A DNA stretch of 64,000 bases from Eledone cirrhosa (Eukaryota): NCBI GenBank assembly GCA_964016885.1, contig OZ024743.1, forward strand, positions 196,168,001 to 196,232,000, in the 5' to 3' direction. The notes beneath the pieces were generated by a model. The model was given only the letters and a program-made list of their open reading frames with translations, did no database searches and was not told the origin of the DNA. This document shows, in pieces, positions 283 through 63,004 of the stretch (positions are counted from its first letter, which is position 1; each line of letters begins with the position of its first letter). The position numbers and the translations under genes are program-made.

Positions 283-750
283 CAGTGTTTAGGCAACCAC
301 GTCACCTTTTTTGTTCAACACTGACAGAGGAACGATGGACTAGTTTCAAGCTTATTAGCTATCGTCAGCATCGTATACCTTCCTGCCAGATGGTTGAACG
401 TCTGAAAGTATATACTTTCCTTATGCATATTAACGGCTGAGCAGCCTAATTTGCATATCGAGTGAGTTCAGTCCGCCGGGCGCACCGAAAACGATAAATG
501 GAATAGAATGAAACGAAATTTCATTTCTCACTCTTAGTACGGCACTTACTTAAATGTAAGTATGTATGTATGTATACGTACATACATATATGTATACAGA
601 CGTACAGTAGTATGTATATATATACATACATGCACACATATATATATGCACGTATCGGTTTACCGAACATTTATTATAATGCTCGGTTTGTTTGTTTGTA
701 AACAAACAAACAGCCCGAATTACGCCGTACAGTTCATTCTATTCCATTTA
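283..750 (-). mobile_element. Non-coding HHR-bearing repeat (retrozyme-like, ~440-450 bp unit), one monomer plus a short inverted end
   Basis: Reverse complement of the unit at 62326-62904, circularly permuted. Flanked by (TA)n. 733-750 is an inverted copy of an internal segment. Confidence 0.8.
333..373 (-). ncRNA. Minimal type I hammerhead ribozyme
   Basis: Minus strand: cgatg CTGACGA t agct-aata-agct t GAAA ctag TC catcg. Stem I cgatg/catcg, palindromic stem III ACTAGT, GUC site. Confidence 0.85.
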
Positions 751-904
751 TATATATATATATATATATATATATGAATGTATATATAGTGTATTTGGCA
801 ATACACTGTATGATTAATTAAAAGCATTTCGAAGACCTTACGCTATTGTTTTAGAGTAGTGACAGTCTCACTTACTTTAAATTTTCAGCAAACAGGGGAG
901 TTAA

Positions 905-4608: not shown

Positions 4609-5423
4609 TCTCTCTCTCTCTCCATAACGATTATATTTTTTACGTGACACACGATGAAGTTTAGTGCGGTGACTGCCTAGACTATGATCTAGGCTAGATC
4701 TATAGACTATGATCTATAGACTAGACCTTGATTCAGCCAAATATGTATGACTGGCAGTTATTTCATCAAGCCCTGATGATTGACGAGAAAAAGGGGGGTT
4801 TTGTGAGAATTTGAACTCGGAATAGGAAAGAATGGAAACTCATTCATTAAGATTTAACGTCATATGGCGAGCATTTCTAGTACGCCAGTGTTTGTGTGTT
4901 TGTGTATGTGAGTTTGAGTGTGTGTGTATGTATGTGTGTGGGGGGGTGTGTGTGTGCATGTGTGTATGTGTGTGTGTGCTTTTACCGCATTGACATTGCT
5001 TTTTTGTTCTCAGTTTGAAGCCTCTTCAGTTGTACGTACCATGTACCTTTTTTATGTGGATTTGGTCTAAACGACTTTGTATTTTACTGTATTTTATCAT
5101 CTTTTCCTGTTGTGATGCAACCCCTGATTCACTGCGGAGAGTAATATGGTCATTAATGAGCCGAAATTCTTATGATATTCAGCAGACAGCTGAGGTAAAA
5201 GGCATGCGCCCGTGATACTTTATTGTTTTTCCATGCCAGGTAAACTCACTCAGATTTTTAATGTGTGTATATATATATATATATATATATGCGTGTGTGT
5301 GTGCGCGCGCGTGTGTGTGTGTGTGTATATATGTGTGTATATATATATATATATACACATATATATATACACACACACACGCGCATATATATATACAATG
5401 ATAATAATTATAATAATAATAAT

Positions 5424-6900
5424 GATTTCATTTATTAGCCACAAGGGCCGACATGTAGGGGATAATACAAAGACAGGGACAGTGGGGGTTTACAATAAGG
5501 TCGAGTAAAAGTGCACAATGGCAAGACTAATTTAACAATGAAAATATAAAAATATAAAATAAACTATGCATAAATATAACAAAATAAATTCCCCGATAGG
5601 GGATGGACGACCCTGGGGTGATTCGGGTACCCCACCAATCCTGAACCACCCTGCGCTTCTAGGGCACCCAGGGAGAGCACCCCTCTCCTCAAGTTAGCTG
5701 GCCTATAGGCGCATGATCAGAGTAGGCCCATTCACACGAGCCATTCTCGCCACATTCACCCACCTTTTAACAAATGTACTGGGGGGGGGGGGGGGGGGCA
5801 GCAGTTCTCTCTCCACCCTCACCTTCCTTTCCAGGTGAAACTTGAAGAAGTTGCTGAGGGATTGGCCGAAGAGAAAAGTGTCAGTCTTCAGTCCTTTCAA
5901 CCTGGTCCACCATATAATCTCTTTCGCAACTGCCACCAGACAGAGGAAAATTTCCTACTCTTCCTGACCTAAGGAAGGCGGTGGATCGATCTTCACTATG
6001 GACTCGGCCGATAGCCGGATTCGTTCCACACGCGGCAGTAGCTGTTCGACATAACTCCACAAGTCAGTAATGCACGGACATTGGACAAGTGCGTGCAGAA
6101 CGGTTTCGTCGTTCTGTGCGCATCTTGGGCAGGTCCGTCTGACAGCACTTCCGTGCCTGTAGAGTTTATCCCGAACTGGCAGTGCCCCCCGGTAGCACTG
6201 CCAAGCGAGGGATTTCTGGAAATTGTCCATCGTCCCCGGCTCAAAAGTCCTCCGGTACAGACTGGTCAGTTCGACTTCGTCGAGGCCCAAAGCTTCTCCG
6301 AGTGCGTCATCGCACTTGCCCACCACTAATCCTCTATAGAACTCGAGAGTGGAAGTTCCACTGATCGCATTGCCCGCTTGGTAGAGGGCAGTGAGTGCCT
6401 GGCAACATTCCAGGTGCCAGTCACCCAGTCTCGGTCTCTTCTTGACCCAGGACTGCAGCTCAGTCAAAGAAATGAGCTGCGGAAAGACCCGTCTGATAAA
6501 CGGCGACCACACCTGTTCACCGTTGAGGCAGAATATCTGGAGATGTTGCAGCCTCAACGCATGTCTGCGCATCATTAGCCACGGCATTGCCCAGCCCTCC
6601 CCGTAGAGGGTGCTGGCAGCAGATGGACCGCCTCACCAACGGAACTTGTCCCCTCCACAAGAATTTGAAGAGGAGCCGTTCCAACTTGACGAGGCGCGGA
6701 CGGGGGCAAGGCACGACGGTCAGGCGGTAGTAGATGACGGACGCGATGTACGCATTCGCCACCTCCGCGCGACCTTTCAGTGATAGCTTCCTCCCAGCCC
6801 ATTTTTGGGTGAGACTGGCTACTCTGCTCGTTACCTCGTCCCAATTCTTTTCCACCTGGAGGTCTGGTCCGAACCAAACCCGAGCAACTTTACCGGTCGG
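5424..6900 (-). mobile_element. 5'-truncated Tx1/L1-clade non-LTR retrotransposon (ORF2 C-terminal part with zf-RVT), frameshifted
   Basis: Translations WAGRKLSLKGRAEVAN, FKFLWRG, CPRCAQNDETVLHALVQC. (ATT)n 3' tail. Embedded in an (AAT)n array on both sides. Homologous to 20603-22894. Confidence 0.9.
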
Positions 6901-8554: not shown

Positions 8555-8590
8555 TATATATATATATATATATATATAGGAACCAGTAAG

Positions 8591-8684
8591 ACCCCGACAG
8601 CTGAGCTCAAGCCGTTTCGACGGCTAATTCTGGACTAAATGAAAATTTATCCTGGTATTTAAATAGCCGATCTTCTCAAGGGGT
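8591..8684 (-). ncRNA. Type I hammerhead ribozyme, U3-A8 variant, large loop II (Naiad 3' pLTR)
   Basis: acccc TTGAGAA gatcggcta...tagccgtc GAAA cggc-ttgagctca-gctg TC ggggt. Stem I acccc/ggggt, GUC site. Confidence 0.8.
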
Positions 8685-9799
8685 AATTCCATATATGGTC
8701 AAAGTGATTGTCAAAAATCAGTAGTAATTCTGTGGTTGCAAATTAGTAGGGGAGATGGTGGCTAAACCTGCCAGTAGGAGAAAGAGGGGAGGGGTTGGAG
8801 TAGACCCAATCAAGCGTTGGTAGTGCCAGCTACAGCTGGGCATGAGGTCAAAGAAGATACAGGGGAGGGGGAGGGGGAGGAAGTCGGAACGGTAGGTAGA
8901 ACAATGGGGGGTAGAAATATATAGGAAAGAAAAAATACTGAGAGTGAAGAAAAGCAAATAAGTGTAAAGAAAAAATAAAGTAAATTAAATTCTACGACCT
9001 AGGTCTCTAGCTATTGTTAGGCTAGAATAAATAAATAAAGAAAGAAAGAAAGAAGTAAAGAAAGAAATAAAGAAATAACGAAATAAGTAAAAGAACTAGG
9101 TGGGACGGATAAGGCAAGGACCCTTTTAAGAGGTATAAGTACGTAAATGATACGGTGACGGGTCAACAAAAGGGGCCAAAATACTAAAGAGACTACCACG
9201 AAATAAACAATAAAGGTTTCCATCCCGGGCACAATGCCAGCAACCACCCAGTGCAGCAAAGTGAACTTGTACGAGATAATAATTCTGAGTCCCGAGAAAA
9301 ATATATACTAATGCTAACTCTAAAAGATCTAAAACAAGCTACAAGAAAGTTCGTACGAAGTAAAGGTAGAATACGGAAAAATAAATTCAGAATCCACCCC
9401 GCCCAAAAGAAAAGCAAAGAAAGAAATACTGAAACGAAAAAATAAGGCATAAGTGCCACTAAGAAATATAGAGGGCACAGAGAATAGTGGGAGCGGTCGG
9501 AAAAGGGGGACAAGTATCCGGGGTCTAAACCAACTGCTATAAAGGGCGGAGTCCGCCAAATCTATCATAGACTAGGGGAGTGGGGTGGGGGTACTTAGGC
9601 TACAAGGGGCCAAAGGGCAGCCTCGGGTGGGCGAGAAAAGACGCCGACAAAGGAGAAGAGCTGGGGTAGAAGGACTAAGGAGAGAAGGGGGAAGGAAATA
9701 AAGGAAGCGATAAAAGAATACAAAGAAGATCTTACGTCTCCCTTGGCAAGCAGGGGTTACCCATTGCAAAATCGGAAAGTGGGGTGTTATAGCCCTAGT

Positions 9800-11963
9800 C
9801 TAACCCCCCCCCCCCCCCGGATCATTATGGGGTTTGAGGGCGAGGTAAGTCCTACGCAATCTATGTTTACATGCAGTAACCAGTTCATCTTTCTTGTTTA
9901 GGAGTTGGTCCGTCGAAAACAGCATTTGTAAAGTTTCCTCCGAGCATAAATTGCACGGACGGCGTCCTCCCGTGTAAGAATTGGCTCTGGACTGTAATAT
10001 CCAAGTGAGATCATAGGTCATGTTGTTGTCCTTGAGGTCCCATATGTGGCCCGAAAGTGTAGTGGCGTGACGCCGGGCCGGGTTTCGGAAGGTATGTCTA
10101 TGTTGGTATAGCCGGGTCTTGAAGTCACATGCGGTAAGTCCTATATAGGCTTTGTTGGAGGTATCCGTCCTCACGTTGCACTGGTAGATCACATTACGGT
10201 CTCTGCATCTATTGTCGAGTGGGCAAATAGATCTATCCGGGCAGTTACACCTCCTGGTCGGTTCTCCACTGCTATTTAGGTTATTTCTGCCATCGGGGTT
10301 GAGTTTTTTGTTGTTAGAGGAGACGATGTTTTGTGCGAAGTTTGGTGTAGTGCTGTAAGAGAGTTTGATGGTATTTTTGTTAATTATGTTGTGGTAGCGG
10401 TGTTGTAATGGGAAGTGTTTTTCAATGAGCCTAAAGAATAGTTTCCCGATGGGAGTTGTCACCTCTGCGTTGTGGGGAGGATTGAACCATGTTACATTGC
10501 GTGAGCGGCGGTGTCTCCTGCTGGTTCCGCTAATGGGAGCTGGACAGTAGGATATTTCCTCCCGGAAACCACTCCGCTTGAGGGCCTGGTTGTAATAAGG
10601 CGCATGTTCATCGAATATCCGCTCATTAGCTGACAAACGGGATATGCGGAGGGAGATGTTTTTGACCAGGTTGTTTGTGATGTTCCTAGGATGGTTTGAT
10701 CGGCGGTGGATGTAGTGCAGATTGTCATTAGGTTTCCTGTATGGGTAGTACAGGTCGTTTTCGAGGTCGAGGGTGACGTCCAGGAAGTTTACTCGGGTCA
10801 GGGACGTTTGTAGGGTTATTTTAAATCCCCAGTCGCGGAAGAATCTGATTAATTGTTTCCGGACCCGATCTGTACTACTGGCGTTGTACCCTTTAAGGGT
10901 AAGGAGCCCATCATCACGGTACAATCCACCACTGAATGCAGGAAACATATCAGTGAGTTTGGCTATTAGGAATAATCCTATAAGATCTGTGACCTCCGCC
11001 GAATCCGTGGCGCCCATGCTGACGTCGAAGGGTGAGTCGGGAGCTCTTTTTATCCATTTAGAGTCGTCAAAGAGTAAGACTGTCTTCCTGGCGTGGAGGA
11101 TGATTTTTCTTTCCTGGTCGGTGATGGGCACAAGTGTTTCGGCGAAGTCCAAGGCGGCAGTAAGTAGCGGTAAGGTGATTGAAGCATAGTAGCTCTCTAT
11201 GTCGAACTGTATGAATTTAGTTTCTCGTTTATCCTCCATATTGCTGAACCAGGAGATTACTTCCTGGGTGTTGATCCATAGGCTAAGTCGGGTGTGTTGC
11301 TTGACTTTTGGTATCACGCGGTCTAGGATTTTTTTGCTGATTCTCCCTATGTCGGACTTCGTTGGGTTAATAAGCCTGATAGAGGGTTTACGGTCAAAAT
11401 CGGATTTATGGTCCTTCAGTGTGAAGTATGGTGTCCGTGGGTCTAGAGGTTCCGTGCGGTCGGCGACCCCGAGGCTGGAGGTGATTTGTTGTCCATCTCG
11501 ATTTATGTCCTCGATGCAAGAGTGGTTGGCCTTTTTATAGGTGGAGTTTAGGCTGCTCCTGATCAGTGTGTGGTATCTGTCAGGGTTGACAAAGTATAGG
11601 TTCCCAGTTTTATCCGAATGCACCATGATGTCATTTGTGTTATCATACTCTGTTAAGTTGCTACGGAGTTTTTGTAGGAATCGGTTGTGTCTGGGTTTAA
11701 ATTTAATGTTCTTGACCAGTTGGAAGAGGTCATTCTCGAAGGGTGCGAGCAAGGGGTTCAGGGGGCGGAGATTTGTAGGTAATAAATCCGAATCTCTCCT
11801 TGGTGCCGAAGTCTTGGTTGTCGCAATATCTGTCATAGAAAAAAGTTCTCCATCTAAGTCTTATCGCAAATAGATCGATTTTTTGCGTGAGCATCCGAAG
11901 GTAAAGTTTTTTCGGTGGGATTGGGATGTTCTTGGTAGAGAAGTCAATGTTGTGTTTTCGCAT
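9800..11963 (-). CDS. PLE reverse transcriptase / GIY-YIG endonuclease (Naiad-type), one frameshift near 11755
   Basis: N-terminal frame MRKHNIDFSTKNIPIP..RLRWRTFF..FGF..KSPP joins the frame LAPFENDL..SDKTGN..FDIESYY..MGATDSAEV..YRDDGL..FLDVTLDL..CNC..CPL..C..NVIY..YIGLT..CNLC..CKH. Confidence 0.9.
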
Positions 11964-12093
11964 GGTGCGGGTGAAATGAATTGAGCTTAGCGGAAAAGTC
12001 TGGATACGGCGTGGTAGGGTCGGAAAGTGCTCTACTACGGGAGTAGGATCTAGATAACGAAGGAAATCAATCACTTTGACCATATATGGAATT

Positions 12094-12187
12094 ACCCCTT
12101 GAGAAGATCGGCTATTTAAATACCAGGATAAATTTTCATTTAGTCCAGAATTAGCCGTCGAAACGGCTTGAGCTCAGCGGTCGGGGT
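12094..12187 (+). ncRNA. Type I hammerhead ribozyme, U3-A8 variant (inverted Naiad pLTR)
   Basis: Same motif as 8591-8684 with one stem III mismatch. Confidence 0.78.
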
Positions 12188-12278
12188 CTTACTGGTTCCT
12201 ATTACCCACTCTACTACCTCAAGTATTGAGTACTTTGGTGCGTTATGGTCCACCTGGTTCCTTACCACATTTCCTTCG

Positions 12279-12316
<38 letters not shown>

Positions 12317-15689: not shown

Positions 15690-16660
15690 GAAATTGTCAT
15701 CCCTTGAACGCAAGAATTTTTTTCAAATTTTGAAGGTGCCAGCTATCGCAGCCATTTGTAGACTATGAATTAGGGAGCTGCGCTCTTTGTCCGCAAATCC
15801 AAGTTCAGTCATACTTTGGTCCAAACGGGTTGGTATATAACCCGTAGCTCCAATAATGATGGGTATGAAGCTAAAGGTGTATCTTGGATACTGGATTTGC
15901 AAACTCCTCATCAATGGTCCGTAGATGTCCTCCTTCTCCTGTATTTTTCTGACAACGTTTACATCAAGTGGGCAGCTGATCTCTACAACAGAACACGTTT
16001 TCAATATGTGGTCCCAAACAACAATATCAGGTTGTGCTTTAATTTGGTGGCAGTTTTCATTTTCAGGTTCCACCAGTATTCCTTAGTGCCATCTGTCTCA
16101 ATATATTCTTCCTCGTTTGTTGTTAATTGTGTTTTCCGAAGTGCGTTCCAGATGGTTCTAGATATCCCATCGTATCTCATGGGAGGTAGTAGCGAGATGA
16201 CATTCTTTCGCAGCTGGCAACAATGTGGCTTACATCCTCGATCTTTGTTTTACATAGCCTACATTTATTGTCAGCTGATGGCCCTCCCCTTTTGTGCAGC
16301 AGATATTTGGTAGGGAGTTCTTGTTCCTGTATTGCATAGAGATATCCCTCAAGGTGTGATGTCATAAACTTGTCGGAACTCCATGCCAGGCTTTTTGAGT
16401 GGTTTATCCCCTCTATGGTCTGTGTTTTACGTCTCAAGTATCCATGCACAACTTTTTCTGTAAATTGATCAATTTTTTCATCTTGTTTGAACATTGAATA
16501 GGATCTTCTGATTTCTCTGGGTGAGAGATTTATATCAGGCTTTATTCCATATCTCTCCTCCAGATCAGTGGCTATTCTAATGATATTTTTTTTCATGCTC
16601 ATAAACCTGGTCAAGATTGTTGCCAACCTTTTTCTTCTGTTGAAGGTGTTGCTTCAGTGT
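15690..16660 (-). mobile_element. 3' fragment of an R4/Dong-like non-LTR retrotransposon (CCHC knuckle + restriction-like endonuclease), disrupted
   Basis: AIQEQEL.TKY, CRLCKTKIEDVSHIVASC, RYYLP.RYD, QPDIVVWD..VVEISCP, PIIIGATG. Confidence 0.85.
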
Positions 16661-20536: not shown

Positions 20537-20602
20537 TTAGCAGTCATCTTTTCTCACGGCTTAAAGAAACTTAGTCATAACCGACACCCTTACTGAATAA
20601 TG

Positions 20603-22894
20603 ATTTCATTTATTGGCGACAAGGGCCGACATATAGGGGACAATACAAAAGACTGGGACAGTGGGGTTTTACAGAAAAATCAAGTAAACAATATGAATAA
20701 CAATAACAAAGTGACAATAAAAATACAAGAAAAATTCCCTAATAGGGGGATGACCACCCAGGGTTCGCTCAGGTACCCCACCAATCCTGAACGACCCGAT
20801 GCTTCGAGAGCACCCTGGAAGGACACTCCTCTCCTCCTCAAATTTACCCACCTACAGGCGCATGACCAGAGTAGGCCCACTCACACGGGCAATTCTCGCC
20901 ACATTCACCCACCTTTCAGCAAATGTACTGGGGGGAGGGGGCAGCACTTCTCTCTCCACCCTCAACTTCCTTTCCAGGTGAAACTTGAAAAAGTTGATGA
21001 GGGAATGGCCGAAGAGAAAAGTGTCTGTCTTCAGTCCTTTCAACTTCGTCCACCATATAACCTCTTTCTCTACTGCCACTAGACAGAGGAAAATTGCCTG
21101 CCCTTCCTGGCCAAAAGAAGGCGGTGGGTCGATCTTCACTATGGCCTCGACCGATAGCCGGATCCGTTCTACACGCGACAACAGCTGTTCGACATAACTC
21201 CACAAGTCAGTAATGCACGGACACTGGACGAGTGCGTGCAGAACGGTTTCGTCGCTCTGCGCGCATCTCGGGCAGGTCCGTCTGACAACACTTCCGTGCC
21301 TGTGGAGTTTATCTCGAACCGGCAGTGCCCCCCCCCCCCCCCCAGTAGCACTGCCAAGCGAGGGATTTTTGGAAATTATCCATCATCCCCGGCACGAAAG
21401 TTCTCCGGTACAGACTGGTTAGTTTGACTTCGTTGACTCCCAGAGCCTCTCCGAGTGCGTTGTCGCACTTTCCCACCACTAATCCTCTATAGAACTCGGG
21501 AGTGGAAGTTCCACTGACCGCATTGCCCGCCTGGTAGAGGGCAGTGAGTGCCTGGCAACATTCCAGATGCCAGTCACCCAGTCTCGAACTCTTCTTGACC
21601 CAGGACTGCTGCTCAGTCAAAGAGACGAGCTGCGGAAAGGCCGTCTGACAAATGGCGACCACACCTGTTCACCGTTTAGGCAGAATATCTGGAGATGCCG
21701 CAGCCTCAGCGCGTGTCTGTGCATCATTAGCCACGACATGCTCAGTCCTCCACGTAGAGGGTGCTGGCAGCAGATGGACCGCCTCACCAGCGGAACCTGA
21801 CCCTCCACAAGAATTTGAAGAGGAGCCGCTCCAAGATAGCGAGGCGCGGACGGAGGCAAGGGACGACAGTCAGACGGTAGTAAATGACGGACGCGATGTA
21901 CGCGTTCGCCACCTCCGCCCGACCTTTCAGTGATAGCTTTCTCGCAGCCCATTTCTGGGTGAGACTGGCTACCCTCCCCGTCACCTCGTCCAAATTCTTA
22001 TCCACCTGGAAGTCTGGCCCGAACGAAACCCGAGCAACTTTACCGGTCCGTCCGTCCAGCGCCTAACGATGCTGTTGGACGGCATGAACTTGCCTCTCCA
22101 GGTGCCGAGTTGCAAGCCCACCGACTTTTCCGGGTTAAGTTTGGCTCCCGTCAACCTTTCATATTCCTCCAATAAGTTGCCAACCACCTCGATTTCTGAG
22201 GTGTCCGACACCATCACGGTGATGTCGTCCGCATAAACCGACACAGCCTTTCCGCGCCCCGGCTCGAGCGGGATGCCCTGCAACAGCTCCAGCTTCCGCA
22301 GTAAAGGCTCTAGAGTCAATACGTACAGAAGGGAGGCGAGAGGGCACCCTTGACGGACCGATCGGGAGACCTGAAACGGTTCCGAGAGGTGGCCATTAAT
22401 TTTGACCACCGAGCAGGTGCCACTCTGCATTGCAGCGATCCAGCTTCTGAAGACGGGGCCGAAGCCAGCCGCCTTGAGGACAGCCTCCAGGTACCGATGG
22501 TCGACCCTATCGAATGCTTTCTATTGATCTAAATTGATCAGAGCCCCACCGAAGCCAGGTTTACACCCTACCCTCTCTATGATGTATCGCATCAGGTGGA
22601 GGTTGTCGTGTATGGACCTGGTTGGGATTGCGCATGTTTGCGCCTCCCCAACTAAATCCCCGACGACAAGCGCCAACCTCTTCGCTAACACCCTGGCCAA
22701 AATCAAAAATTCTGTGTTGAGCAGAGTTATGGGCCTGAAATTGCCTAATGTGTCCTTCTTGTTCTCGTATTTCCTTATCAGCGTCACTACGCCCGGCTCA
22801 CAGAACTGGGAATGCTCCCGTTCTGCTGCCAGTTGCAGTAGAGCGCTTCGAGGAGATTGGAGAACAAGTCTGGCATATTTACGTAAAGCTCGTA
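20603..22894 (-). mobile_element. 5'-truncated Tx1/L1-clade LINE (RT + zf-RVT), multiple frameshifts, probable TSD
   Basis: NFRPITLLNTE, LINLDQ*KAFDRV, SVRQGCPLA, SVYADD. tact(g/a)aataatg flanks at 20591-20602 and 22899-22910. Confidence 0.92.
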
Positions 22895-23791
22895 CTGTTA
22901 CTAAATAATGGTATTATGTTCCACAAAACATTTCCAATAAAAAAGAATTTGAACTCATTCTAATTCAAATTGAATCAGATATTTTAGTTCAAATGTCCAT
23001 TACTGGCTGTCATAGGTGATATGACATTACTGAAATTCTCTGTCTAATATATTCTATAAAAATATTTCTATCTCTTACTTTCAGCAATATACATATTTTA
23101 TGACAATATTTGGATCTTATACCAAAAGTGCGGATGATTTCCTGGAAACGTTTTAGTCTTTACAAAAGATAATATTAACCTATTCTTAAAACATCCTTTA
23201 TCCTCCAGCGTATAATTGTAGCCATCTTGAAAGACTATTGAAGCCTTAAAAATCTTCCTACTTTCTAGCCAATATATTTATCGCATTCTATAATGCAGGA
23301 AAGTATTTTAAGATTTCTATTACTTCTAATGGTTGCTCTCTTTTAACAAGACAAACATTTTGGCTATTAAAAATGCACACACCATTTTTATTACTGTAGT
23401 ATTTCCAAGTTAAGCTAACAATTGACAATAATTTAGCCGCAATCAATAGACCTGAAAATGGCTCCTTTCCCAAATTTTATACCACACTGAATATATTGTA
23501 AAGCAAATATACACAGGATATAAAAACTATTGCATGGAACACAGTATATAAGGAAATGCATCGTAGATGAAAACGAATGAAGTTAATCAACTGAAGTTAA
23601 GCCAATAGTAGTTCCACAGAGGTTCTGTTAAATTGAAAATGGCACTGGAAATAGTTGATGCACGCCATTCATAATATATTGAATAGAATATATAATACAG
23701 AAAATATGTTCTATTTTTTTCTAGTTGTTTATAGTTTCTCTGTTAATATCTTTACAATAATTGTTCCAGAACTTCCTGAGAGGCAAGGTTA

Positions 23792-30186: not shown

Positions 30187-31389
30187 CATAAATATACATA
30201 TATATACATACATATACATATATATACATATATATACATATATATATATATATATGTATTTCCTTGCGTACCGTTTTGTACCACAGATGCGATCTCACTC
30301 TGCCTCGTTAATGTTCAATCGACACCAAAGTTCTACGTTCGGGGCAATAGAATTGAATCCAACCACCGACAACATAGTTGGATGACCGATAATCACACCA
30401 AACCGGAGTACTGTGATCCTTGTGATTTCGAGATATACAACCACTGACACTGTTACGAAGACCAGAAAACCATACTCCATAATATTGAACCAAGTGATTG
30501 ATTTGTGCGACCAAAATAACACCACACATATATTGAACTAGGAATATTGGATCCTCCGTCAATGTCTGGGTGAGCAAAAATAGATTTCTATCTGCATTGG
30601 AATTTACGAACTTGTGCATCTGCTGTGGTGTCAAAAACAAACGCACATGACCTCACAGATGAACAATGGACTATGCCACGTGGGTTGAACCTGCAAGTGA
30701 ATTGAAGGATGTGTAACTCTGATATACAGATTATTTATTATTAAGATGTATAAACTTGACATAACTATTATCATCTTATATTCTCTCAACTAATCACATT
30801 TGATCATATTTCTCTATCCCGTTTTCTCCCCCATATTTATAATATTTTTATTTGAAAAAAATCGGTTTTTTTACATTATGTTTTTCCCTTTCTAATACTT
30901 GCTTATATTTCTTTATATATTCTCTATATATTTTTTTATATATATATTTTTTTATCTTTATTCTTATTTCCACTTTTATCCTCCTTTATATTTTACCTTG
31001 TTCTTACTTTTATACCTTATTATAGTGTAATCTTCTCCATGCCTTATTATACATTATTAATTATAGATTATTATTATTACTCTTTTTCCATTTCTAATTA
31101 CCTCATGTACTTTCTCCTCCGTTATATATATATTGTATGCCCTTTGTGTGTGTGTAGCCTCTGCACACCCTCTGCACCCTACTATCGAGGCCACCCCATC
31201 TATGGCTCAACTAACCACTCGACTCCCGGGAATGAATATAACCACAGCTAGTAAACAAGGACTCACACCCCACCCTCCCGCACCAAAATTAGACTTTTCG
31301 TCCCCTGCCTTTGCTCTTTACTCTCTTTTCTCTTTGTTCTTGAATGTTTGGTTGGTAGAGTCCATAACACCAATCAAACCCCTTTTATA

Positions 31390-31556: not shown

Positions 31557-31653
<97 letters not shown>

Positions 31654-31699
31654 CGTAAAATAAGAAAATTATAAAATTAACTTACCTACTAAAATATCA

Positions 31700-31779
31700 C
31701 TTCCAACTAATTAGTTTCTGAAATGGAATAAATATGCTTTCCGAAGAAAACATAGAGAATCATTTCGTCGTCAGGGAAG
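31700..31779 (-). ncRNA. Type I hammerhead ribozyme, extended stem II (522-bp family)
   Basis: Reverse complement of 32739-32818. Confidence 0.82.
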
Positions 31780-32221
31780 ACTATTCTCAGCTAAGTATCC
31801 AGGCAAAGCGTGGAATCTGGAAACTTATTCAAAAATAATTCAGTGGATAGAAAATAGCAAAGCGTGGACTGAATTCCTAGCCATTGAGAAAATCACTGCC
31901 TCTGCGTCGGTGGCAAATTCAAAAAGAATCAATCACGTGACATCGAGGTCAATCAGTGGAAAGTGGTTTGCTAATAAGACAGCGGCCTGCCTGCTACCAT
32001 AGCAGCAGTCTTGGCCAATATTGCTCGACAAATAATTTGGAGATAATTATAAAGAATGAATATCTAGTAACATATATATACATACAGATGCATATCAATG
32101 CTAGCAAATATATAGGTTTTGTCTTAGTAACTTTGTGGTTCAATGCATGGGGTTGCAGAACAATAATATGAGAGAGGTAAAATAAGAAAATTATAAAATT
32201 AACTTACTTACTAAAATATCA

Positions 32222-32301
32222 CTTCCAACTAATTAGTTTCTGAAATGGAATAAATATACTTTCCGAAGAAAACATAGAGAATCATTTCGTCGTCAGGGAA
32301 G
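32222..32301 (-). ncRNA. Type I hammerhead ribozyme, extended stem II (522-bp family)
   Basis: Tandem copy 522 bp from 31700. Confidence 0.8.
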
Positions 32302-32738
32302 ACTATTCTCAGCTAAGTATCCAGGCATAGCGTGTACTCTGGAAACTTATTCAAAAATAATTCAGTGGATAGAAAATAGCAAAGCGTGGACTGAATTCCT
32401 AGCTATATATTTGCTAGCATTGATATGCATCTGTATGTATATATATGTTACTAGATATTAATTCTTTATAATTATCTCCAAATTATTTGTCGAGCAATAT
32501 TGGCCAAGACTGCTGCTATGGTAGCAGGCAGGCCGCTGTCTTATTAGCAAACCACTTTCCACTGATTGACCTCGAAGTCACGTGATTGATTCTTTTTGAA
32601 TTTGCCACCGACGCAGAGGCAGTGATTTTCTCAATGGCTCGGAATTCAGTACACGCTTTGCTATTTTCTATCCACTGAATTATTTTTGAATAAGTTTCCA
32701 GAGTCCACGCTTTGCCTGGATACTTAGCTGAGAATAGT

Positions 32739-32818
32739 CTTCCCTGACGACGAAATGATTCTCTATGTTTTCTTCGGAAAGCATATTTATTCCATTTCAG
32801 AAACTAATTAGTTGGAAG
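32739..32818 (+). ncRNA. Type I hammerhead ribozyme, extended stem II (522-bp family)
   Basis: cttcc CTGACGA c gaaatg..tatgttttc-ttcg-gaaagcata..catttc a GAAA ctaattag TT ggaag. Palindromic stem III ACTAATTAGT. Confidence 0.85.
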
Positions 32819-32985
32819 TGATAATTTAGTAAGTAAGTTAACTTTATAATTTTCTTATTTTACGTCTCTCATATTATTGTTCTGCAACCCCATGCATTGA
32901 ACCACAAAGTTACTAAGACAAAACCTATATATTTGCTAGCATTGATATGCATCTGTATGTATATATATGTTACTAGATATTAATT

Positions 32986-33052
<67 letters not shown>

Positions 33053-33062
33053 AAAAAGTATG

Positions 33063-33159
33063 ACCCCGACGGCAGAGCTAAAGCCGTTTCGACGGCTATT
33101 TCTGGACTAAATTAGAATGTTTAGCCTGGTGAATAAATCGCCGAACTTCTCAAGGGGGT
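33063..33159 (-). ncRNA. Hammerhead ribozyme, U3-A8 variant (second Naiad subfamily)
   Basis: cccc TTGAGAA gttcggcga...tagccgtc GAAA cggc-tttagctct-gccg TC gggg. Stem II has mismatches. The opposite-arm copy (35920-36016) has a mutated core. Confidence 0.7.
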
Positions 33160-33829
33160 ACTTCCTTATATGGGAAGATTGTAGTTGTCAAGAGAATTGG
33201 TTAAAATTTGTTGTAAACACAAATAAGTCTCTCGTGGCATTTGGTCGGAGGTAGGGGTGGCTGAACTTGCCTGTAGAACAATAGGGGATTGAGTGGAGCG
33301 GTCAAGCGTTGAAAGTGATATGTATACAGCAGATTCTAAGGATAGTGTATGAAGTGGAGGAGGGAGGTTATAGAATAGGTAAATCGAATGAGAGTAGGAG
33401 ACAATAAAAGATAATAGAACAAATAAAAAATTAGATAGTGAGAACTGAATAAAAATAATCACAATGCTATCTTACAATTACAGGTTAAGAAGTTGAGAAT
33501 AGAAAAGATTTGTAGAAATTGAGTAGTAACAAAACTAATACAAAATTGAAGGGGTTTAACACATCTGCTATAAGTAGTTGGTAAAACGTATTCGGCCAAT
33601 TCTATCTTAAAATTACAGGGGTGGGGGAACTGAAGCTACAGAGGCCCGATGGGCTGCATTCGGGGTAGGCGAAAGGGGAAAGCAGACGAGGAAGACAATA
33701 GGGGGTGGAAGGAAGTAGTAGGATGAGACAGGGGGAAGAAGAAGATAAAGAGGAAAAGAAAAGAGATACATCTACCTATGTAAGCTGGGGTTTCCCCTAA
33801 CTTATTCGGCAAGTGTGTGTGAGGTGTCG

Positions 33830-34813
33830 TTATGAAATTTGAGGGCAAAGTAAGTCCTATGCAATCTGTGTTTGCATGCGGTTACCAGTTCGTCTTTCTT
33901 GTTTAGGAGTTGGTCCTTCGAAAACACCATTTGTAATGTTTCCTCCGATCATAAGTTACACGGACGGCGTCCTCCCGTGTAAGAGTTAGCTCTGGACAGT
34001 AAGCTCCAAGTGAGATTGTAGGTTATATTATTATCTTGGAGGTCCCAGATATGGCCCGAAAGTGTAGTGGCATGTCGCCGGACTGGGTTTCAGAAAGTTA
34101 TGTCGGTGTTGGTAGAACCGGGTCTTGAAAATACACGCGGTTAATCCTATATAAGCTTTGTTGGAGGTGTCCGTCCTCACGTTGCACTGGTAGATCACGT
34201 TAAGTTCTCGGCATTTGTTGTTGAGGGGGCACATAGATCTATCAGGGCAGTTACACCTCCTGGTCGGCTCTTCACTGATGTCTAGGTTATTTCTTCCATA
34301 GGGGTTGAGTTTTTTGTTGTTTGAGGAGACGATGTTTTGTGCAAAGTTAGTTGTGGTACTGTAGGAGAGTTTGATGGTGTTTTTGTTGATTATGTTGTGG
34401 TAGCGGTGTTGTAGTGGGAAGTGTTTTTCGGGGAGTCTAAAGAAGATTTTCCTGACAGGTGTTGCCACCTCGGCATTATGGCGAGGATTGAACCACAGTA
34501 CGTTGCGTGAGCGGCGGTGTCGCTTACTGGTTCCGCTCAGGGAAGCTGGATAAAAGGATATTTCCTCCCGGAAGCCACTCCGCTTGAGGTCCTGGTTGTA
34601 ATGAGGCGCGTGTTCGTCGAATATCTGCTCATTAGCGGACAAACGAGATATGCGGAGGGAGATGTTTTTAACCAGGTTATTAGTGATGTTTCTAGGATGG
34701 TTAGAGCGGCGGTGGATGTAGTGCAGGTTGTCGTTTGGTTTCCTGTATGGGTAGTACAGATCATTTTCGAGGTTAAGGGTAACGTCCAGGAAATTGACTC
34801 GGGTTAGGGACGT
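33830..34813 (-). pseudogene. Naiad RT thumb / GIY-YIG fragment, frameshifted
   Basis: FLDVTLNL..SNHP..WFNP..CNCPDRSMCPL..YIGLT, frameshift near 34090. Confidence 0.88.
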
Positions 34814-36107
34814 CAACAACAAATGCCGAGAACGTAACGTGATCTACCAGTGCAACGTAGGGACGGACACCTCCAACAAAGCTTATATAGAATTAACCGC
34901 GTGTGACTTCAAGACTTGGATCTACCAACACTGACATAACTTTCTGTGAAACCCAGTCCGGCGACATGCCACTACACATTCGGGCCACATCTGGGACCTC
35001 CAAGATAATAATATAACCTACAATCTCACTTAGAGCTTACTGTCCAGAGCTTACTCTTACACGGGAGGACGCCGTCCGTGTAACTTATGCTCGGAGGAAA
35101 CATTACAAATGGTGTTTTCGAAGGACCAACTCCTAAACAAGAAAGACGAACTGGTAACCGCATGCAAAAACAGATTGCGTAGGACTTACCTCGCCCTCAA
35201 ACCCCATAACGACCCGGTGGGTCGCTAAGGGCTGATACCCCCCCCACACACACACACACACACTTGCCGAATAAGTTAGGGGAAACCCGAGCTTACATAG
35301 GTAAATGTATCTCTTTTCTTTTCCTCTTTATCTTCTTCCCCCTGCCTCATCCTATCACTTCTTTCCACCCCTATTTTCTTCCTTGTCTGCTTTCCCCTTT
35401 CGCCTACCGCGATGCAGCCCATCGGGTCTCTGTAGCATCAGTTCCCCCACGCCTGTAATTTTAAGATAGAATTGGCCGAATACGTTTTACTAACTACTTA
35501 TAGCAGATGTGTTAAACCCCTTTAATTTTGTATTAGCTTTGTTACTACTCAATTTCTACGAGTTTTTTCTATTCTCAACTTATTAATCTGTAATTGTAAG
35601 ATATCATTGTGATTTTTTATTCAGTTCTCACTATCTAATTTTATATTTTTTTTATTTCTTTCTATTATCTTTTATTGTCTCCTACTCTCATTCGATTTAC
35701 CTATTCTATAACCTCCCTCCTCCACTTCATACACTATCCTTAGAATCTGCTGTATACATATCACTTTCAACGCTTGCCCGCTCCACTCACTCCCCTATTG
35801 TTCTACAGGCAATTTCAGCCACCCCTACCTCCCACCAAATGCCATGATAGACTTATTTGTGTTTACAACAAGTTTTAACCAATCCTCTTGACAACTACAA
35901 TCTTTCCATATAAGGAAGTACCCCCTTAACAAGTTCGGCTATTTATTCACCAGGCTAAAAATTCTAATTTAGTCCGGAAATACCCGTCAAAACGGCTTTA
36001 GCTCTGCCGTCGGGGTCATACTTTTTCCTATTTCCCACTCTACTACCCTAAGTATTGAGTACTCTGGTGCGTTATGGTCCATCTGGTTTCTTACCACACT
36101 TCCTTTG

Positions 36108-36154
<47 letters not shown>

Positions 36155-36215: not shown

Positions 36216-36270
36216 ACTGCTATATATATTTCGGTGACAGCCATCATTGGCTGTGACCTCTTCAGGCAGT
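36216..36270 (-). ncRNA. Type I hammerhead ribozyme (Neptune pLTR)
   Basis: actgc CTGAAGA ggtcacagcca-atga-tggctgtcacc GAAA tatata TA gcagt. Palindromic stem III ATATATAT. Confidence 0.88.
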
Positions 36271-36715
36271 CAGAATTGGTGTGGTATATATATATATATA
36301 CAGGTAACCCATTTTTAAAACAAACTAAAACTCACACACCACATGCACAACAAATAACAAAAAAAGTAACAAAACGTCGAACATACCCCCAGCAAAACTA
36401 TAACGATAATCCCAGAAACCATAGACAAAACTATAACCCTACTAACAAAAACCAAAGATCCCCGAACACAAGGCAGGACCTGATCCGCAGATCACAACCC
36501 ACACAAAACCTATTTCAAAACCGTTGACCCCTGCCCACACAAAGGAACAAAATCTACAACCAGGACTATCAACAAACCGAACCTCAATACGTCCGAAACT
36601 TCTATACAAGACCACACAACAACAGGGGAAATACCATTAGATATAATAATACCATTGAAAAAACATTCCAGAAAAATCATTTTTTAGACCAAGGCTACAG
36701 GACTCACGACACCCG

Positions 36716-38986
36716 GTGGCACAAACCGATTTTGAAAAACCGAAAATAATTAACCTTTCAAATACAAACCTCTCAGCCCAACAAGTAAAAATTCTCTCCA
36801 AAGGACTGAAATTCACACCAACACCACGATACTCTAACCCCAATGAGATAAATGACGATATCTCACACTTCTGTAGAAAATTACGTCTCACAGAGGAATT
36901 CTTTGACAAGGAGAATAACGACGAATCAATTGTACGGAATAAAAGCAGCTACAACCCAACAAAAGGTAGAAACAGAGTTCTGGACAAATTTTGTGACCAC
37001 ATAGCTACCTTCCCATACCATGAACTACCGCAACCTAAACCCAAACCCAACACGAGTCGAAGGGAATGGGAGATTATCCATGAACTAAAAAACAATACGG
37101 ACATTATAATTAAGGAAGCGGACAAGGGAAGTACTGTTGTCATTATGGAGGCTGAAAAATATAAAAATTCTATGTTCTCTCTCTTACAAAATACTAATTA
37201 CTATGAAAGAGTAAAAAACTACCAGCAATCAAAAATAATGACCAGATTAAACACACTGATTTATCGATACCAGGAAGACCTAACTAAAAAGGAACGCGAT
37301 TATTTAACAAATTTTTAATACAAAACCAGCAACCTTTACGGACTTCCGAAGATCCACAAGTGTAAAATAATCAACGATGCCTGTAAACAATCCACCTCAG
37401 CCTGTGTGAACACACAATACCCCCACAGACCTTAAATTAAGACCAATTGTAGCGGGCCCACAATGTGAAACACACAGACTGAGCAACTTTATAGACATAC
37501 TACTAAAACCAATTCTGAAACACATACCAAGCCTTGTAAGAGACGATCTGGACCTCTTAAACCACCTCCCCAAACATGTCAACAACGACACTATTATTGT
37601 ATCTTTCGATGTAGTGAATCTCTACACAACGATCCCACACCAATACGGATTAGAAGCAATAGGATTCTGGCTAGAGAAATATCCCAATGAGATACCTGAC
37701 AGAATAGAAAAAAGCTTCATCACCGAGGGATTAAAATTCATCTTACAGAACAACTTTTTTGATTTCGATGGCAATACTTACAAGCAAATATCGGGGACTG
37801 CGATGGGTACAAAAGCCGCTCCAACTTATGCCAACTTAGTCATGGCATACTTAGAAGTCCAGATATATGAACAGTCCAAATCAAAATACGGATTGAACTT
37901 CCACAAATATTTATCAGAGAATTAAAAACGCTACTTTGATTATTGCCTTATTCTTTGGTCCCACACACTCGACCAACTGAAGGATTTCAAAAACTTAATA
38001 AACGGCATCAATAACCACATCCAATTCACAATGGAATTCAGCCAAGATCAACTCCCATTTCTGGACATCTTAATCTTAAAAAAAGACATAAATATCGAAA
38101 CTCACATACACTACAAACCAACAGATTCCAAACAATATCTGCTATTCACCTCCAACCATCCAAAGCACACGAAGACGAACATTCCTTTTAACCTAGCAAG
38201 AAGAATTTGCACAATTGTCTCCAATTATGAAACGCGAAATAAAAGACTTCAAGAATTAAAGGAAATTCTACTCGAGAGAGAGTACCCACTATTACTAATA
38301 AATAAGGGAATAGAAAGGGCTAAAGGAATAGGCATTGATGAATTACGGAAACAGAAACAAATTCGAGGTACGTCCAATATTCTATCATATATCTCAACAC
38401 ACAACCCAAGAAATACGGAAGCTTACAAAACTATTCACAAGAACATCCCACTACTAAAACAAAACCCAAGAATGAAAAAAGCCCTTGAAACACAAAATAA
38501 TCAAAAGCAAAAGACAACCAAAATCACTGAAAACATTACTTACCAATGCGAAAATTACCTACCACAAACCCACAACCAAGTATCAAAAAATGTGGTCGCT
38601 TTAATTGTGGAACCTGCACTCACCTCATTGAAGGCAACACGTATACATTTAAATCAGGACAAAATTTTACTGTAAAAAATCACTTCACTTGCTCATCTAA
38701 AAATCTAATTTATGCCATTAAATGTAAAGGATGCAATGAAGATTATATAGGACAAACTAAACTCACACTCAGAAACAAAATGACAGTTCATCGCCAACAA
38801 TTACGAGATCCAACCACGAGACAGATACCACTAAGTGCACATCTAGACATTTGCGCAAGTAATAAGACACCCAAATTCCAAGTCTTCCCATTTTACCTTT
38901 GCGCTAACAATACAACAGAACAAATACGAATAAATAAGGAAAATATGTTTATTCAAAAATATAGACCAGCATTAAATATGGTTTAA
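36716..38986 (+). pseudogene. PLE RT / GIY-YIG (Neptune-type), with stops and frameshifts
   Basis: INLS..LSKGLKFTPTP, ADKGST, YGLPKIHK, SFDVVNLYT, GTAMGTKAAPTYANL, LPFLD, CGRFNCGTC, NLIYAIKCKGC..YIGQT. Stops at ~37316 and ~37923. Catalytic motif reads YFDY. Confidence 0.9.
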
Positions 38987-53053: not shown

Positions 53054-53089
<36 letters not shown>

Positions 53090-53093
<4 letters not shown>

Positions 53094-53552
53094 AATTAAT
53101 ATATCTACCGACATATGTATACAGATGCATACCTATGCTAGCAGATATATATGTTTTGTCTAGGTAACTTTGTGGTTCTATGCAGGGGAATGCAGAACAA
53201 TTATATGAAAGACGTAAATAAGAAAGTTATGAAAATTGACTTACTTACTAAAATTTCACTCCAACTAATTAGTTTCTGTAAGGGGATAAATATAGTTACA
53301 TAATAACTATAGAGAAGCCTTACGTCATCTAGTCCCGTTCGCTTTTTTCCATCCACTGAATTATTTTTATATTTTTATATAAGTTCCCAGTGTCCTCGCA
53401 TTGCCTGGAAGCTTAGCCGAGAATAGACTCCCTGATGACGTAAGGCTTCTCTATAGTTATTACGTAACTATATTTATCCCCTTACAGAAACTAATTAGTT
53501 GGAGTGAAATTTTAGTAAGTAAGTCAATTTTCATAACTTTCTTATTTACGTC

Positions 53553-53560
<8 letters not shown>
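53090..53560. mobile_element. Fold-back copy of a diverged relative of the 522-bp family
   Basis: Arms ~53205-53328 / 53434-53560. Same two end points as 31646-32989. Confidence 0.85.
53427..53505 (+). ncRNA. Type I hammerhead ribozyme, extended stem II
   Basis: actcc CTGATGA c gtaagg..tatagtta-ttacg-taactata..ccttac a GAAA ctaattag TT ggagt. Covaries with 32739-32818. Confidence 0.87.

Positions 53561-53592
<32 letters not shown>

Positions 53593-53594
<2 letters not shown>

Positions 53595-62309: not shown

Positions 62310-63004
<695 letters not shown>

What the first reader, a model, noticed from the sequence alone, without database searches (positions are those of the whole stretch)
283..750. 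~442-nt retrozyme-like family present as circularly permuted copies
Seen: on the minus strand this copy starts at ctgtacggcg (732) and ends at aaacactg (283). These two ends are contiguous in the copy at ~62673-62688. The 62310-62904 copy starts elsewhere and wraps ~1.3 units. One HHR per unit, no ORF, and the site varies GUC/GUA within the NUH rule. Inference: insertions were copied from a circular or multimeric RNA of about 440-450 nt. The unit also holds an octamer ATGCAAAT (449-456 on minus), which may be a promoter element.
Basis: partly seen in the sequence, partly recalled or inferred. Interest (0 to 1): 0.7.

Follow-up and report, generated by a model that had tools for sequence, protein, structure and literature searches.

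The report
Penelope-inserted hammerhead retrozyme, permuted copies
This is a real, abundant, non-coding repeat of about 445 bases with a hammerhead (self-cutting RNA) motif; its copies look inserted by a Penelope-type jumping-gene enzyme, likely copying a circular or uncut multi-unit RNA, so it is a new member of a known class (retrozymes) whose RNA has not been detected yet.

Summary
Confirmed, with corrections. The window holds two copies of a non-coding unit with one canonical-type I hammerhead (HHR) each. B (62317-62904) is 1.33 turns. Public runs show a high-copy family in which A's ends are joined, head-to-head inversions recur, and a 3' end recurs at unit position 233-239 against (TA)n. 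That is the Penelope-like (PLE) footprint, also seen on coding PLEs in this window; none of them shares this sequence. The permutation therefore fits fixed internal priming plus variable 5' truncation better than random entry on a circle. Both copies cross the HHR cut site, so the template was probably a re-ligated circle or an uncut multimer; my data do not separate these. No RNA evidence was obtained, cleavage is untested, and the octamer is unproven. The scan already noted other-length families of this kind elsewhere in this genome, but no look-alike of this sequence. Verdict: new member of the metazoan non-LTR retrozymes.

The parts
283..732 (-). Copy A, forward arm: one full 447-nt turn plus 3 repeated letters; the next two letters (TA) fit both the unit and the (TA)n flank
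   Evidence: joint 729→283 'goes back 447' in X1, X4 and X21
733..751 (+). Copy A, inverted arm: A221-239, head to head with the forward arm, outer end in (TA)n
   Evidence: 100% over 19 nt, E 5e-4
332..374 (-). Type I hammerhead core fold in A: helix I 6 bp, CUGACGA (368-362), helix II 4 bp on a U·U base with AAUA loop, GAAA (347-344), palindromic ACUAGU helix III (344-339), predicted cut after 338 (GUC)
   Evidence: cleavage not tested
313..399 (-). Predicted extended stem that holds the hammerhead; the cleavage-ready fold costs 2.2 kcal/mol over the minimum
449..456 (-). Octamer ATGCAAAT; also one arm of a predicted hairpin; promoter role unproven
383..414 (-). TATATA (414-409) and GGCAG (387-383), 27 nt apart, directly before the hammerhead: candidate TATA box and start (inference)
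   Evidence: lead from e1-8804837
488..500 (-). Recurrent 3' end of insertions (A233-239, window 500-494) and the only T4 run of A's sense strand (491-488)
291..307 (-). Small hairpin after the hammerhead; variants printed from reads mostly keep it paired with other letters (read by eye)
   Evidence: tables 5c, 7
544..655 (-). AT/AC microsatellite hairpin region of the unit; masked in read mapping (544-648)
62317..62904 (+). Copy B: 1.33 turns (A86→A450/A1→A235), 5' junction inside the unit's AT run, 3' end against (TA)n, no inverted arm
62596..62626 (+). Hammerhead core of B, GUA site, one G·U in helix I
62508..62515 (+). Octamer of B

Best explanation
It is a high-copy, non-coding repeat of about 445 nt with one type I hammerhead motif per unit, likely a non-LTR retrozyme that a Penelope-like element's enzymes would insert into (TA)n from a probably circular unit RNA. 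Proposed cycle: (1, inferred) a locus with two or more hammerheads is transcribed, perhaps from the octamer/TATA block inside the unit; (2, inferred from anatomy) two hammerheads pair through the palindromic helix III and cut, and a host ligase closes the monomer, which as a lone circle cuts poorly; (3, footprint shown, enzyme inferred) a PLE endonuclease/RT cuts (TA)n and starts cDNA at a fixed internal site, A233-239; (4, shown as structure) copying runs back across the cut site for a variable length, 1.33 turns in B; (5, shown as structure) a second arm from the other DNA end joins head to head, as in A. A and B hold one hammerhead each and could not release a monomer alone.
For: Both copies span the cut site, which a cut-to-cut linear monomer cannot template without a jump. 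A's ends are joined in 11 X1 contigs, 2 X4 contigs and 331 X21 reads, and 7,330 X21 reads run on past 285 in unit-like letters. The 3' end recurs: B at A233-235, A's inverted arm at A236-239, 3 X4 contigs leaving at 494 into (TA)n, and the printed majority of 44 X1 loose ends (agreement 0.72). It is not in the unit's own AT tracts (A86-95, A109-118), where chance pairing with (TA)n would favour it. Head-to-head junctions have three different inner breakpoints: A, one X9 contig (A269|A191, 4 shared letters, read by eye) and one X1 contig at depth 5. Coding PLEs in the window have the same two-armed, (TA)n-bounded layout, as described in PMC8557442. Helix sizes match the canonical metazoan HHR of PMC4209133; the one-pair palindromic helix III and U·U helix II base match axolotl retrozyme HHRs that cut best as dimers (PMC7229834). 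A's forward arm is one turn within 3-6 nt (about 2-3% by chance, noticed after the fact).
Against: No RNA data at all. A PLE RT used uncut RNA in vitro, HHR mutants did not affect insertion, and no RNA-seq ends were found at its cut site (PMC11167929). In 63% of X1 depth helix I position 3 becomes U with no partner change among the rows shown, which would weaken cutting. Core conservation is not significant (0 of 6 fixed CUGANGA letters vary where 11 of about 89 places do). Eight of 9 Xenopus dimers did not cleave in vitro (preprint 2026.07.22.740005). B's two overlapping turns differ at 4 of 150 letters plus a 4-nt indel; this fits decay after insertion but equally a mixed multimer. A's forward arm does not end at the recurrent site. 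No array with two hammerheads was seen, and no partner PLE shares sequence with the unit (best E 1.5). No Rfam hammerhead match.
Confidence: 0.5

Rival explanations
1. Same element and same PLE enzymes, but the template is a linear, uncut read-through RNA from a multi-unit locus, or a linear RNA extended by template jumps. The hammerhead is weak or a passenger, and any circle is a by-product.
For: PLE RT starts internally and prefers unprocessed RNA in vitro (PMC11167929). Weak helix III, U·U in helix II and a likely U·U in helix I of the majority. The only T4 run lies 3-7 nt after the recurrent end and could be a linear 3' end. B's turns are not identical.
Against: It does not explain A's arm being one turn within 3-6 nt. 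Each round would shorten arrays unless jumps regenerate them. Related retrozymes in coral, mussel and axolotl accumulate as circles (PMC7229834).
Confidence: 0.33
2. The copies are 5'-truncated remnants or solo pseudo-LTRs of a coding Penelope-like element, not a separate non-autonomous family.
For: All end features are those of PLEs (PMC8557442). Xenopus retrozymes are related to pLTRs (preprint 2026.07.22.740005). Short contigs and the masked stretch 544-648 could hide exits into an ORF.
Against: B repeats head to tail at 442 nt with no ORF between. The share of laid contigs that run on into unlike sequence is 0 (X1), 0.05 (X4) and 0.04 (X5). The HHR has canonical helix sizes, not the long helix II and short helix I of pLTR minimal HHRs (PMC4209133). 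No coding PLE in the window carries it. Ancestral origin from a pLTR remains open.
Confidence: 0.12
3. DNA-level origin: a Helitron-like rolling-circle element, satellite recombination or an assembly artefact produced the permuted copies, and the hammerhead is chance.
For: The unit holds a hairpin followed by CTAG (Helitron-like 3' end, recalled). Microsatellite flanks are error-prone. Microsatellite-rich control stretches fold as well as the unit (z -3 to -15).
Against: Neither window copy ends at that CTAG. The junction and the 3' end recur in independent runs, including raw reads of another sample. The complete HHR pattern occurs 2 times against 0 in 100 shuffles.
Confidence: 0.05

Closest known systems
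Metazoan non-LTR retrozymes (Cervera and de la Peña 2020, PMC7229834; parts 2-4 of 6 read; supplement not readable)
   Same: Non-coding unit with one type I HHR, GC under 50% (38%), no LTR/PBS/PPT seen, predicted self-paired fold with the HHR free to form, PLEs in the same genome. HHR combines the helix III of HHR_Amex1 with the U·U of HHR_Amex2.
   Different: 447 nt is at or above the top of the ranges given there (150-450 bp repeats; 170-400 nt circles). Here the copies are 1.0 and 1.33 turns, not tandem arrays. RNA, circle and cleavage are untested. Fixed 3' ends and inverted arms are not described in the parts read.
Vertebrate non-LTR retrozymes as non-autonomous PLEs (Li, Clavereau, Pollet, bioRxiv 10.64898/2026.07.22.740005; parts 1-3 of 5 read)
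   Same: Solo monomers beside arrays; PLE dependence proposed; unit lengths 51-972 bp.
   Different: No mollusc sampled. Neither window copy meets their 'active' rule (two consecutive units with complete HHRs). No homologous pLTR found here.
Penelope-like elements, insertion structure and mechanism (PMC8557442 passages; PMC11167929 parts 1-2 of 4; PMC4209133 part 1 of 4)
   Same: Partial tandems, inverted 5'-truncated arm, AT-rich or (TA)n targets, fixed internal RT start, HHR in the terminal repeat.
   Different: No ORF. The two ends seen are about 4 nt apart, not a 30-40-nt tail. HHR is canonical-sized, not minimal.
Newt satellite 2 (Coats, Zhang, Epstein 1994; paper not held; only its title and a citing sentence in PMC2220036 seen)
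   Same: HHR satellite with an internal promoter-like block.
   Different: There an snRNA-type Pol II promoter is reported; that it includes an octamer is my recall. Here only motifs are seen, and the octamer lies 62-69 nt before the candidate start, closer than the vertebrate distal element (recalled).

Membership tests
Metazoan non-LTR retrozyme | Non-coding unit of a few hundred bp, GC under 50%, no LTR/PBS/PPT | tested here: met
   442-447 nt, 38% GC, longest ATG ORF 38-71 aa; no LTR pair seen; PBS/PPT judged by eye only
Metazoan non-LTR retrozyme | One type I HHR per unit with canonical helices | tested here: met
   Helix I 6 bp, II 4 bp, III 1 bp plus palindrome (PMC4209133). Rfam models did not score it
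Metazoan non-LTR retrozyme | Head-to-tail repeats, with arrays of two or more HHR units in the genome | tested here: inconclusive
   Head-to-tail continuity shown (B; joints); no two-HHR array in the window, no genome held, reads too short
Metazoan non-LTR retrozyme | High copy, dispersed | tested here: met
   8,705 contigs of X1 and 38,290 of 12,467,656 X21 reads (reduced-representation library) laid on the unit; not a copy number
Metazoan non-LTR retrozyme | Self-cleavage of the RNA | not testable with these tools
   Only folds computed
Metazoan non-LTR retrozyme | Expression as linear and circular unit-length RNA | not testable with these tools
   No raw RNA run was available to lay
Penelope-like element (autonomous) | RT plus GIY-YIG ORF flanked by pLTRs | tested here: not met
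   No ORF in or beside either copy; nearest PLE-like coding remnants 9 kb and 5.6 kb away
PLE-mobilised insertion | Fixed 3' end, inverted 5' arm, AT-rich target | tested here: met
   Ends at A233-239 against (TA)n in 2 window arms, 3 X4 contigs and an X1 loose-end majority; 3 head-to-head junctions. A's forward arm is an exception
PLE-mobilised insertion | 30-40-nt tail between two RT start sites | tested here: inconclusive
   The two ends seen differ by about 4 nt; no second recurrent end among the loose ends shown (636 rows not shown)
PLE-mobilised insertion | Partner PLE with a homologous terminus | tested here: inconclusive
   None among the window's PLE ends (best E 1.5); rest of genome not searchable
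Newt satellite 2-type self-promoted repeat | Functional internal snRNA-type promoter | tested here: inconclusive
   Octamer, TATATA and GGCAG present; octamer chance 110 of 3000; no transcription data

The most novel reading that the evidence does not exclude
A SINE-like partner of Penelope elements that carries its own promoter just ahead of a dimer-dependent hammerhead, lives as a 447-nt RNA circle, and is copied from a fixed internal site. Copy A, one turn long to within 3-6 nt, is the genomic print of a reverse transcriptase going once round the circle and stopping at its own start, and B of one that ran on past it. This would be direct sequence evidence for circle-templated retrotransposition, proposed but not shown in the papers read.
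Probability: 0.3. Interest if true: 0.65.

Novelty: new member of a known kind. Interest (0 to 1): 0.38.

Why it matters
The class is published, and its mobilisation by PLEs from RNA circles is proposed but not demonstrated in the papers read (PMC7229834; preprint 2026.07.22.740005). This family adds copies whose ends can be read: a fixed internal start, head-to-head arms, (TA)n targets and a one-turn copy. That makes the circle-versus-uncut-template question testable from an assembly and one northern blot. Full-text searches for retrozyme + octopus, hammerhead + Penelope + octopus and hammerhead + cephalopod listed no paper whose title or abstract start reports such a family; the cephalopod assignment itself rests on scan notes and my recall, and one key supplement could not be read. 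The gain is incremental.

Tried and rejected
No whole genome is held, so copy number, array lengths, end mapping and partner search could not be run genome-wide. The look-up of sequencing runs: no RNA holder listed; this says nothing about expression. Rows with small shares that I did not lay (X10-X20) are not used. X6, X8 and X9 gave only 9, 4 and 5 contigs at low depth with variants also seen in organism A, so I do not count them as extra species; only X5 (2,475 contigs, different majority letters) suggests a related host. HHR patterns found nothing in metagenome contigs or viral contigs. Rfam matches are AT-repeat miRNA models below gathering score and were rejected. The whole-unit fold z (-9.6 and -5.8 linear; -8.6 and -5.4 circular) is rejected as evidence, because 5 of 6 control stretches, all microsatellite-rich, gave -3.2 to -15.2; the non-microsatellite half gives -3.6. 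Pile-ups of read ends at 448-451, 517-520 and 721 in X21 fall on AATT sites and are read as restriction cuts of the RAD library, not RNA or element ends; X21 opposite-strand joints at 516 were dropped for the same reason. The conservation test was blind near its edges (it omitted 338, 442 and 447, which one search listed), so GAAA, U16.1 and the octamer were covered only, which showed 40 of 128 rows; none fell there, which excludes only large variants. A sense-strand A→G excess (7 v 2 places in X1 and X4; 11 v 9 in X21; 3 v 3 in X5; p about 0.09 by hand for 7 of 9) is too weak to call editing. A Pol III read-through model is weakened by a subfamily (27% of X1 depth, places 426 and 428) that gains a second T4 run. 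A 22-nt match at 30652-30673 (E 0.28) is chance. Helitron reading rejected on ends. Coats 1994 not held; supplement of PMC7229834 not readable.

Full report
Observation. The window has two copies of the unit. I number unit positions A1-A450 along 732→283. Copy A begins and ends with the same three letters, so it is one 447-nt turn plus 3; one more letter before and two after fit both unit and flank. It is preceded by a 19-nt inverted copy of A221-239 (733-751) that ends in (TA)n. Copy B runs from A86 through A450/A1 to A235 (62317-62904), 1.33 turns with period 442, and ends against (TA)n; its 5' junction lies in the unit's own AT run. Identity is 97.3% and 93.7% for the two segments. No ORF of 100 aa overlaps either copy, and going round the unit the longest ATG ORF is 38-71 aa.

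The ribozyme motif. Each copy has CUGACGA, a 4-bp helix II on a U·U base, GAAA, a palindromic ACUAGU helix III, a GUC (A) or GUA (B) site and a 6-bp helix I; the cleavage-ready fold costs 2.2-2.3 kcal/mol over the minimum and helix III can form 6 bp between two molecules. These are the helix sizes of the canonical metazoan HHR, not of the minimal pLTR form (PMC4209133, part 1 of 4). The one-pair palindromic helix III and the U·U are the features of the two axolotl retrozyme HHRs, which cut weakly alone and well as dimers (PMC7229834). The pattern occurs 2 times against 0 in 100 shuffles. Against this, Rfam has no hammerhead match. Family data show GUA as the majority site (97% of X1 depth) and the free position 7 as the only variable letter of CUGANGA at 5% or more, but 0 of 6 against 11 of about 89 variable places is not significant. 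In 63% of X1 depth helix I position 3 changes to U with no partner change among the rows shown, which would weaken the ribozyme. Cleavage was not tested.

The family. No genome is held. Of 23 runs listed I laid 7. X1 gave 8,705 contigs, X4 107, X5 2,475, and X21 38,290 of 12,467,656 raw reads; the family is abundant, but these are not copy numbers. A's ends are joined in other copies: joint 729→283 in 11 X1 contigs, 2 X4 contigs and 331 X21 reads from 10 starts, with 7,330 X21 reads continuing past 285 in unit-like letters (80 joints and 636 loose ends were not shown). The share of contigs running on into unlike sequence is 0 to 0.05 in X1, X4 and X5, though 544-648 was masked. Read by eye, variants of the small hairpin after the HHR mostly keep its pairs, some with changes on both sides; 2 of the 6 I read had a mismatch (tables 5c and 7). 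The whole-unit fold score is not evidence, since microsatellite controls score as well; the non-microsatellite half gives z -3.6.

The ends. B ends at A233-235 and A's inverted arm at A236-239. Three X4 contigs leave the unit at 494 (A239) into (TA)n, and the printed majority of 44 X1 loose ends shows a (TA) run at the same place (agreement 0.72). The unit's own AT tracts would be better matches to a (TA)n primer, so this end looks enzyme- or RNA-end-defined (inference). Head-to-head junctions occur with different inner breakpoints in A (A221|A1), one X9 contig (A269|A191, 4 shared letters) and one X1 contig at depth 5 (about A327|A235). Partial tandems, an inverted 5'-truncated arm and (TA)n bias are described for PLEs (PMC8557442, passages), and a purified PLE protein cuts AT-rich DNA on both strands and starts cDNA at fixed internal sites (PMC11167929). 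Coding PLE-like elements in this window show the same layout: a 686-aa ORF at 11860-9800 with an inverted arm, a two-armed relative at 33048-36110, and a frameshifted RVT_1 + GIY-YIG element at 36659-38986 (the 686-aa ORF had no Pfam match and is called PLE-like from its motifs and weak likeness, E 6e-5, to the other). None shares sequence with the unit (best E 1.5), and the nearest coding remnants are 9 kb from A and 5.6 kb from B. One exception stands: A's forward arm ends at A450, not at the recurrent site.

Template. Both copies cross the cut site, so a cut-to-cut linear monomer cannot be the template without a jump. A re-ligated circle or an uncut multimer can. For the circle: related retrozymes accumulate as circles (PMC7229834), and A's arm is one turn within 3-6 nt, about 2-3% by chance, a single case noticed after the fact. 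For uncut RNA: the purified PLE used unprocessed RNA and ignored HHR mutations, this HHR looks weak, and the only sense T4 run lies 3-7 nt after the recurrent end. B's two overlapping turns differ at 4 of 150 letters plus a 4-nt indel, similar to B's other differences from A once majority letters are set aside, which decides nothing. I put the circle at 0.5 and uncut RNA at 0.33.

Promoter. The octamer (A277-284), TATATA (A319-324) and GGCAG (A346-350) stand in that order before the HHR. I looked for this order after scan note e1-8804837 described it in other units. An octamer appears in 110 of 3000 shuffled units and is also one arm of a predicted hairpin. A subfamily at 27% of X1 depth changes the other arm, while no octamer variant was among the rows shown, but that test was weak. 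Newt satellite 2 is cited as having an snRNA-type Pol II promoter (PMC2220036, 2 passages; original not held). Unresolved.

Comparison and novelty. It works like, and on the features testable here is a member of, the metazoan non-LTR retrozymes, proposed to be non-autonomous PLE derivatives (PMC7229834; preprint 10.64898/2026.07.22.740005, parts 1-3 of 5). Expression, circularity, cleavage and two-HHR arrays are untested. It is not an autonomous PLE. Paper searches listed nothing that reports this family or these end features for retrozymes in title or abstract start; the supplement of PMC7229834 could not be read and may list further species. The scan has notes on 310-, 422-, 467- and 478-nt families of the same kind in this genome, unchecked AI notes that I used as leads; no look-alike of this sequence was on file. 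Verdict: real, new member of a known kind, interest 0.38.

Noticed in passing
window 31644-32992 and 53058-53593: A second, unrelated non-coding HHR family, unit about 522 nt: long helix II, 10-nt palindromic helix III, GUU site; HHRs at 32744-32813 (+), 32296-32227 (-), 31774-31705 (-) and a copy about 80% alike at 53432-53500 (+). The first locus is two-armed head to head (about 1.46 and 1.13 units) in (TA)n, and its left arm holds two HHRs.
   Followed up: partly
window 8576-12280 and 33048-36110: PLE-like family with a 686-aa open frame (11860-9800, minus; no Pfam match) and a two-armed truncated copy; its two arms end about 80 nt apart against (TA)n, and many short non-coding pieces of its end lie across the window. 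A candidate source of enzyme, untested.
   Followed up: partly
window 36220-38986: Frameshifted PLE (RVT_1 and GIY-YIG) with an HHR-like motif on the opposite strand near 36229-36265, as in an inverted pLTR.
   Followed up: no
window 402-428 in runs X1, X6, X8, X9, X21: Subfamily variants around the TATA hairpin: an 8-nt deletion at 400 and paired changes at 426 and 428 (27% of X1 depth) that create a second sense T4 run.
   Followed up: partly
window 283-732, runs X1 and X4: Sense-strand A→G places outnumber T→C 7 to 2; not seen in X21 or X5; a weak hint of editing scars only.
   Followed up: partly
window 339, run X9 record 23: One contig departs from the unit exactly at the predicted cut site; the next letters resemble a variant helix I strand, so it may be divergence and not an end.
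   Followed up: no
window 5418-6898 and 20596-22913; 15723-16653: Broken LINE-like reverse-transcriptase remnants (RVT_1, zf-RVT).
   Followed up: no
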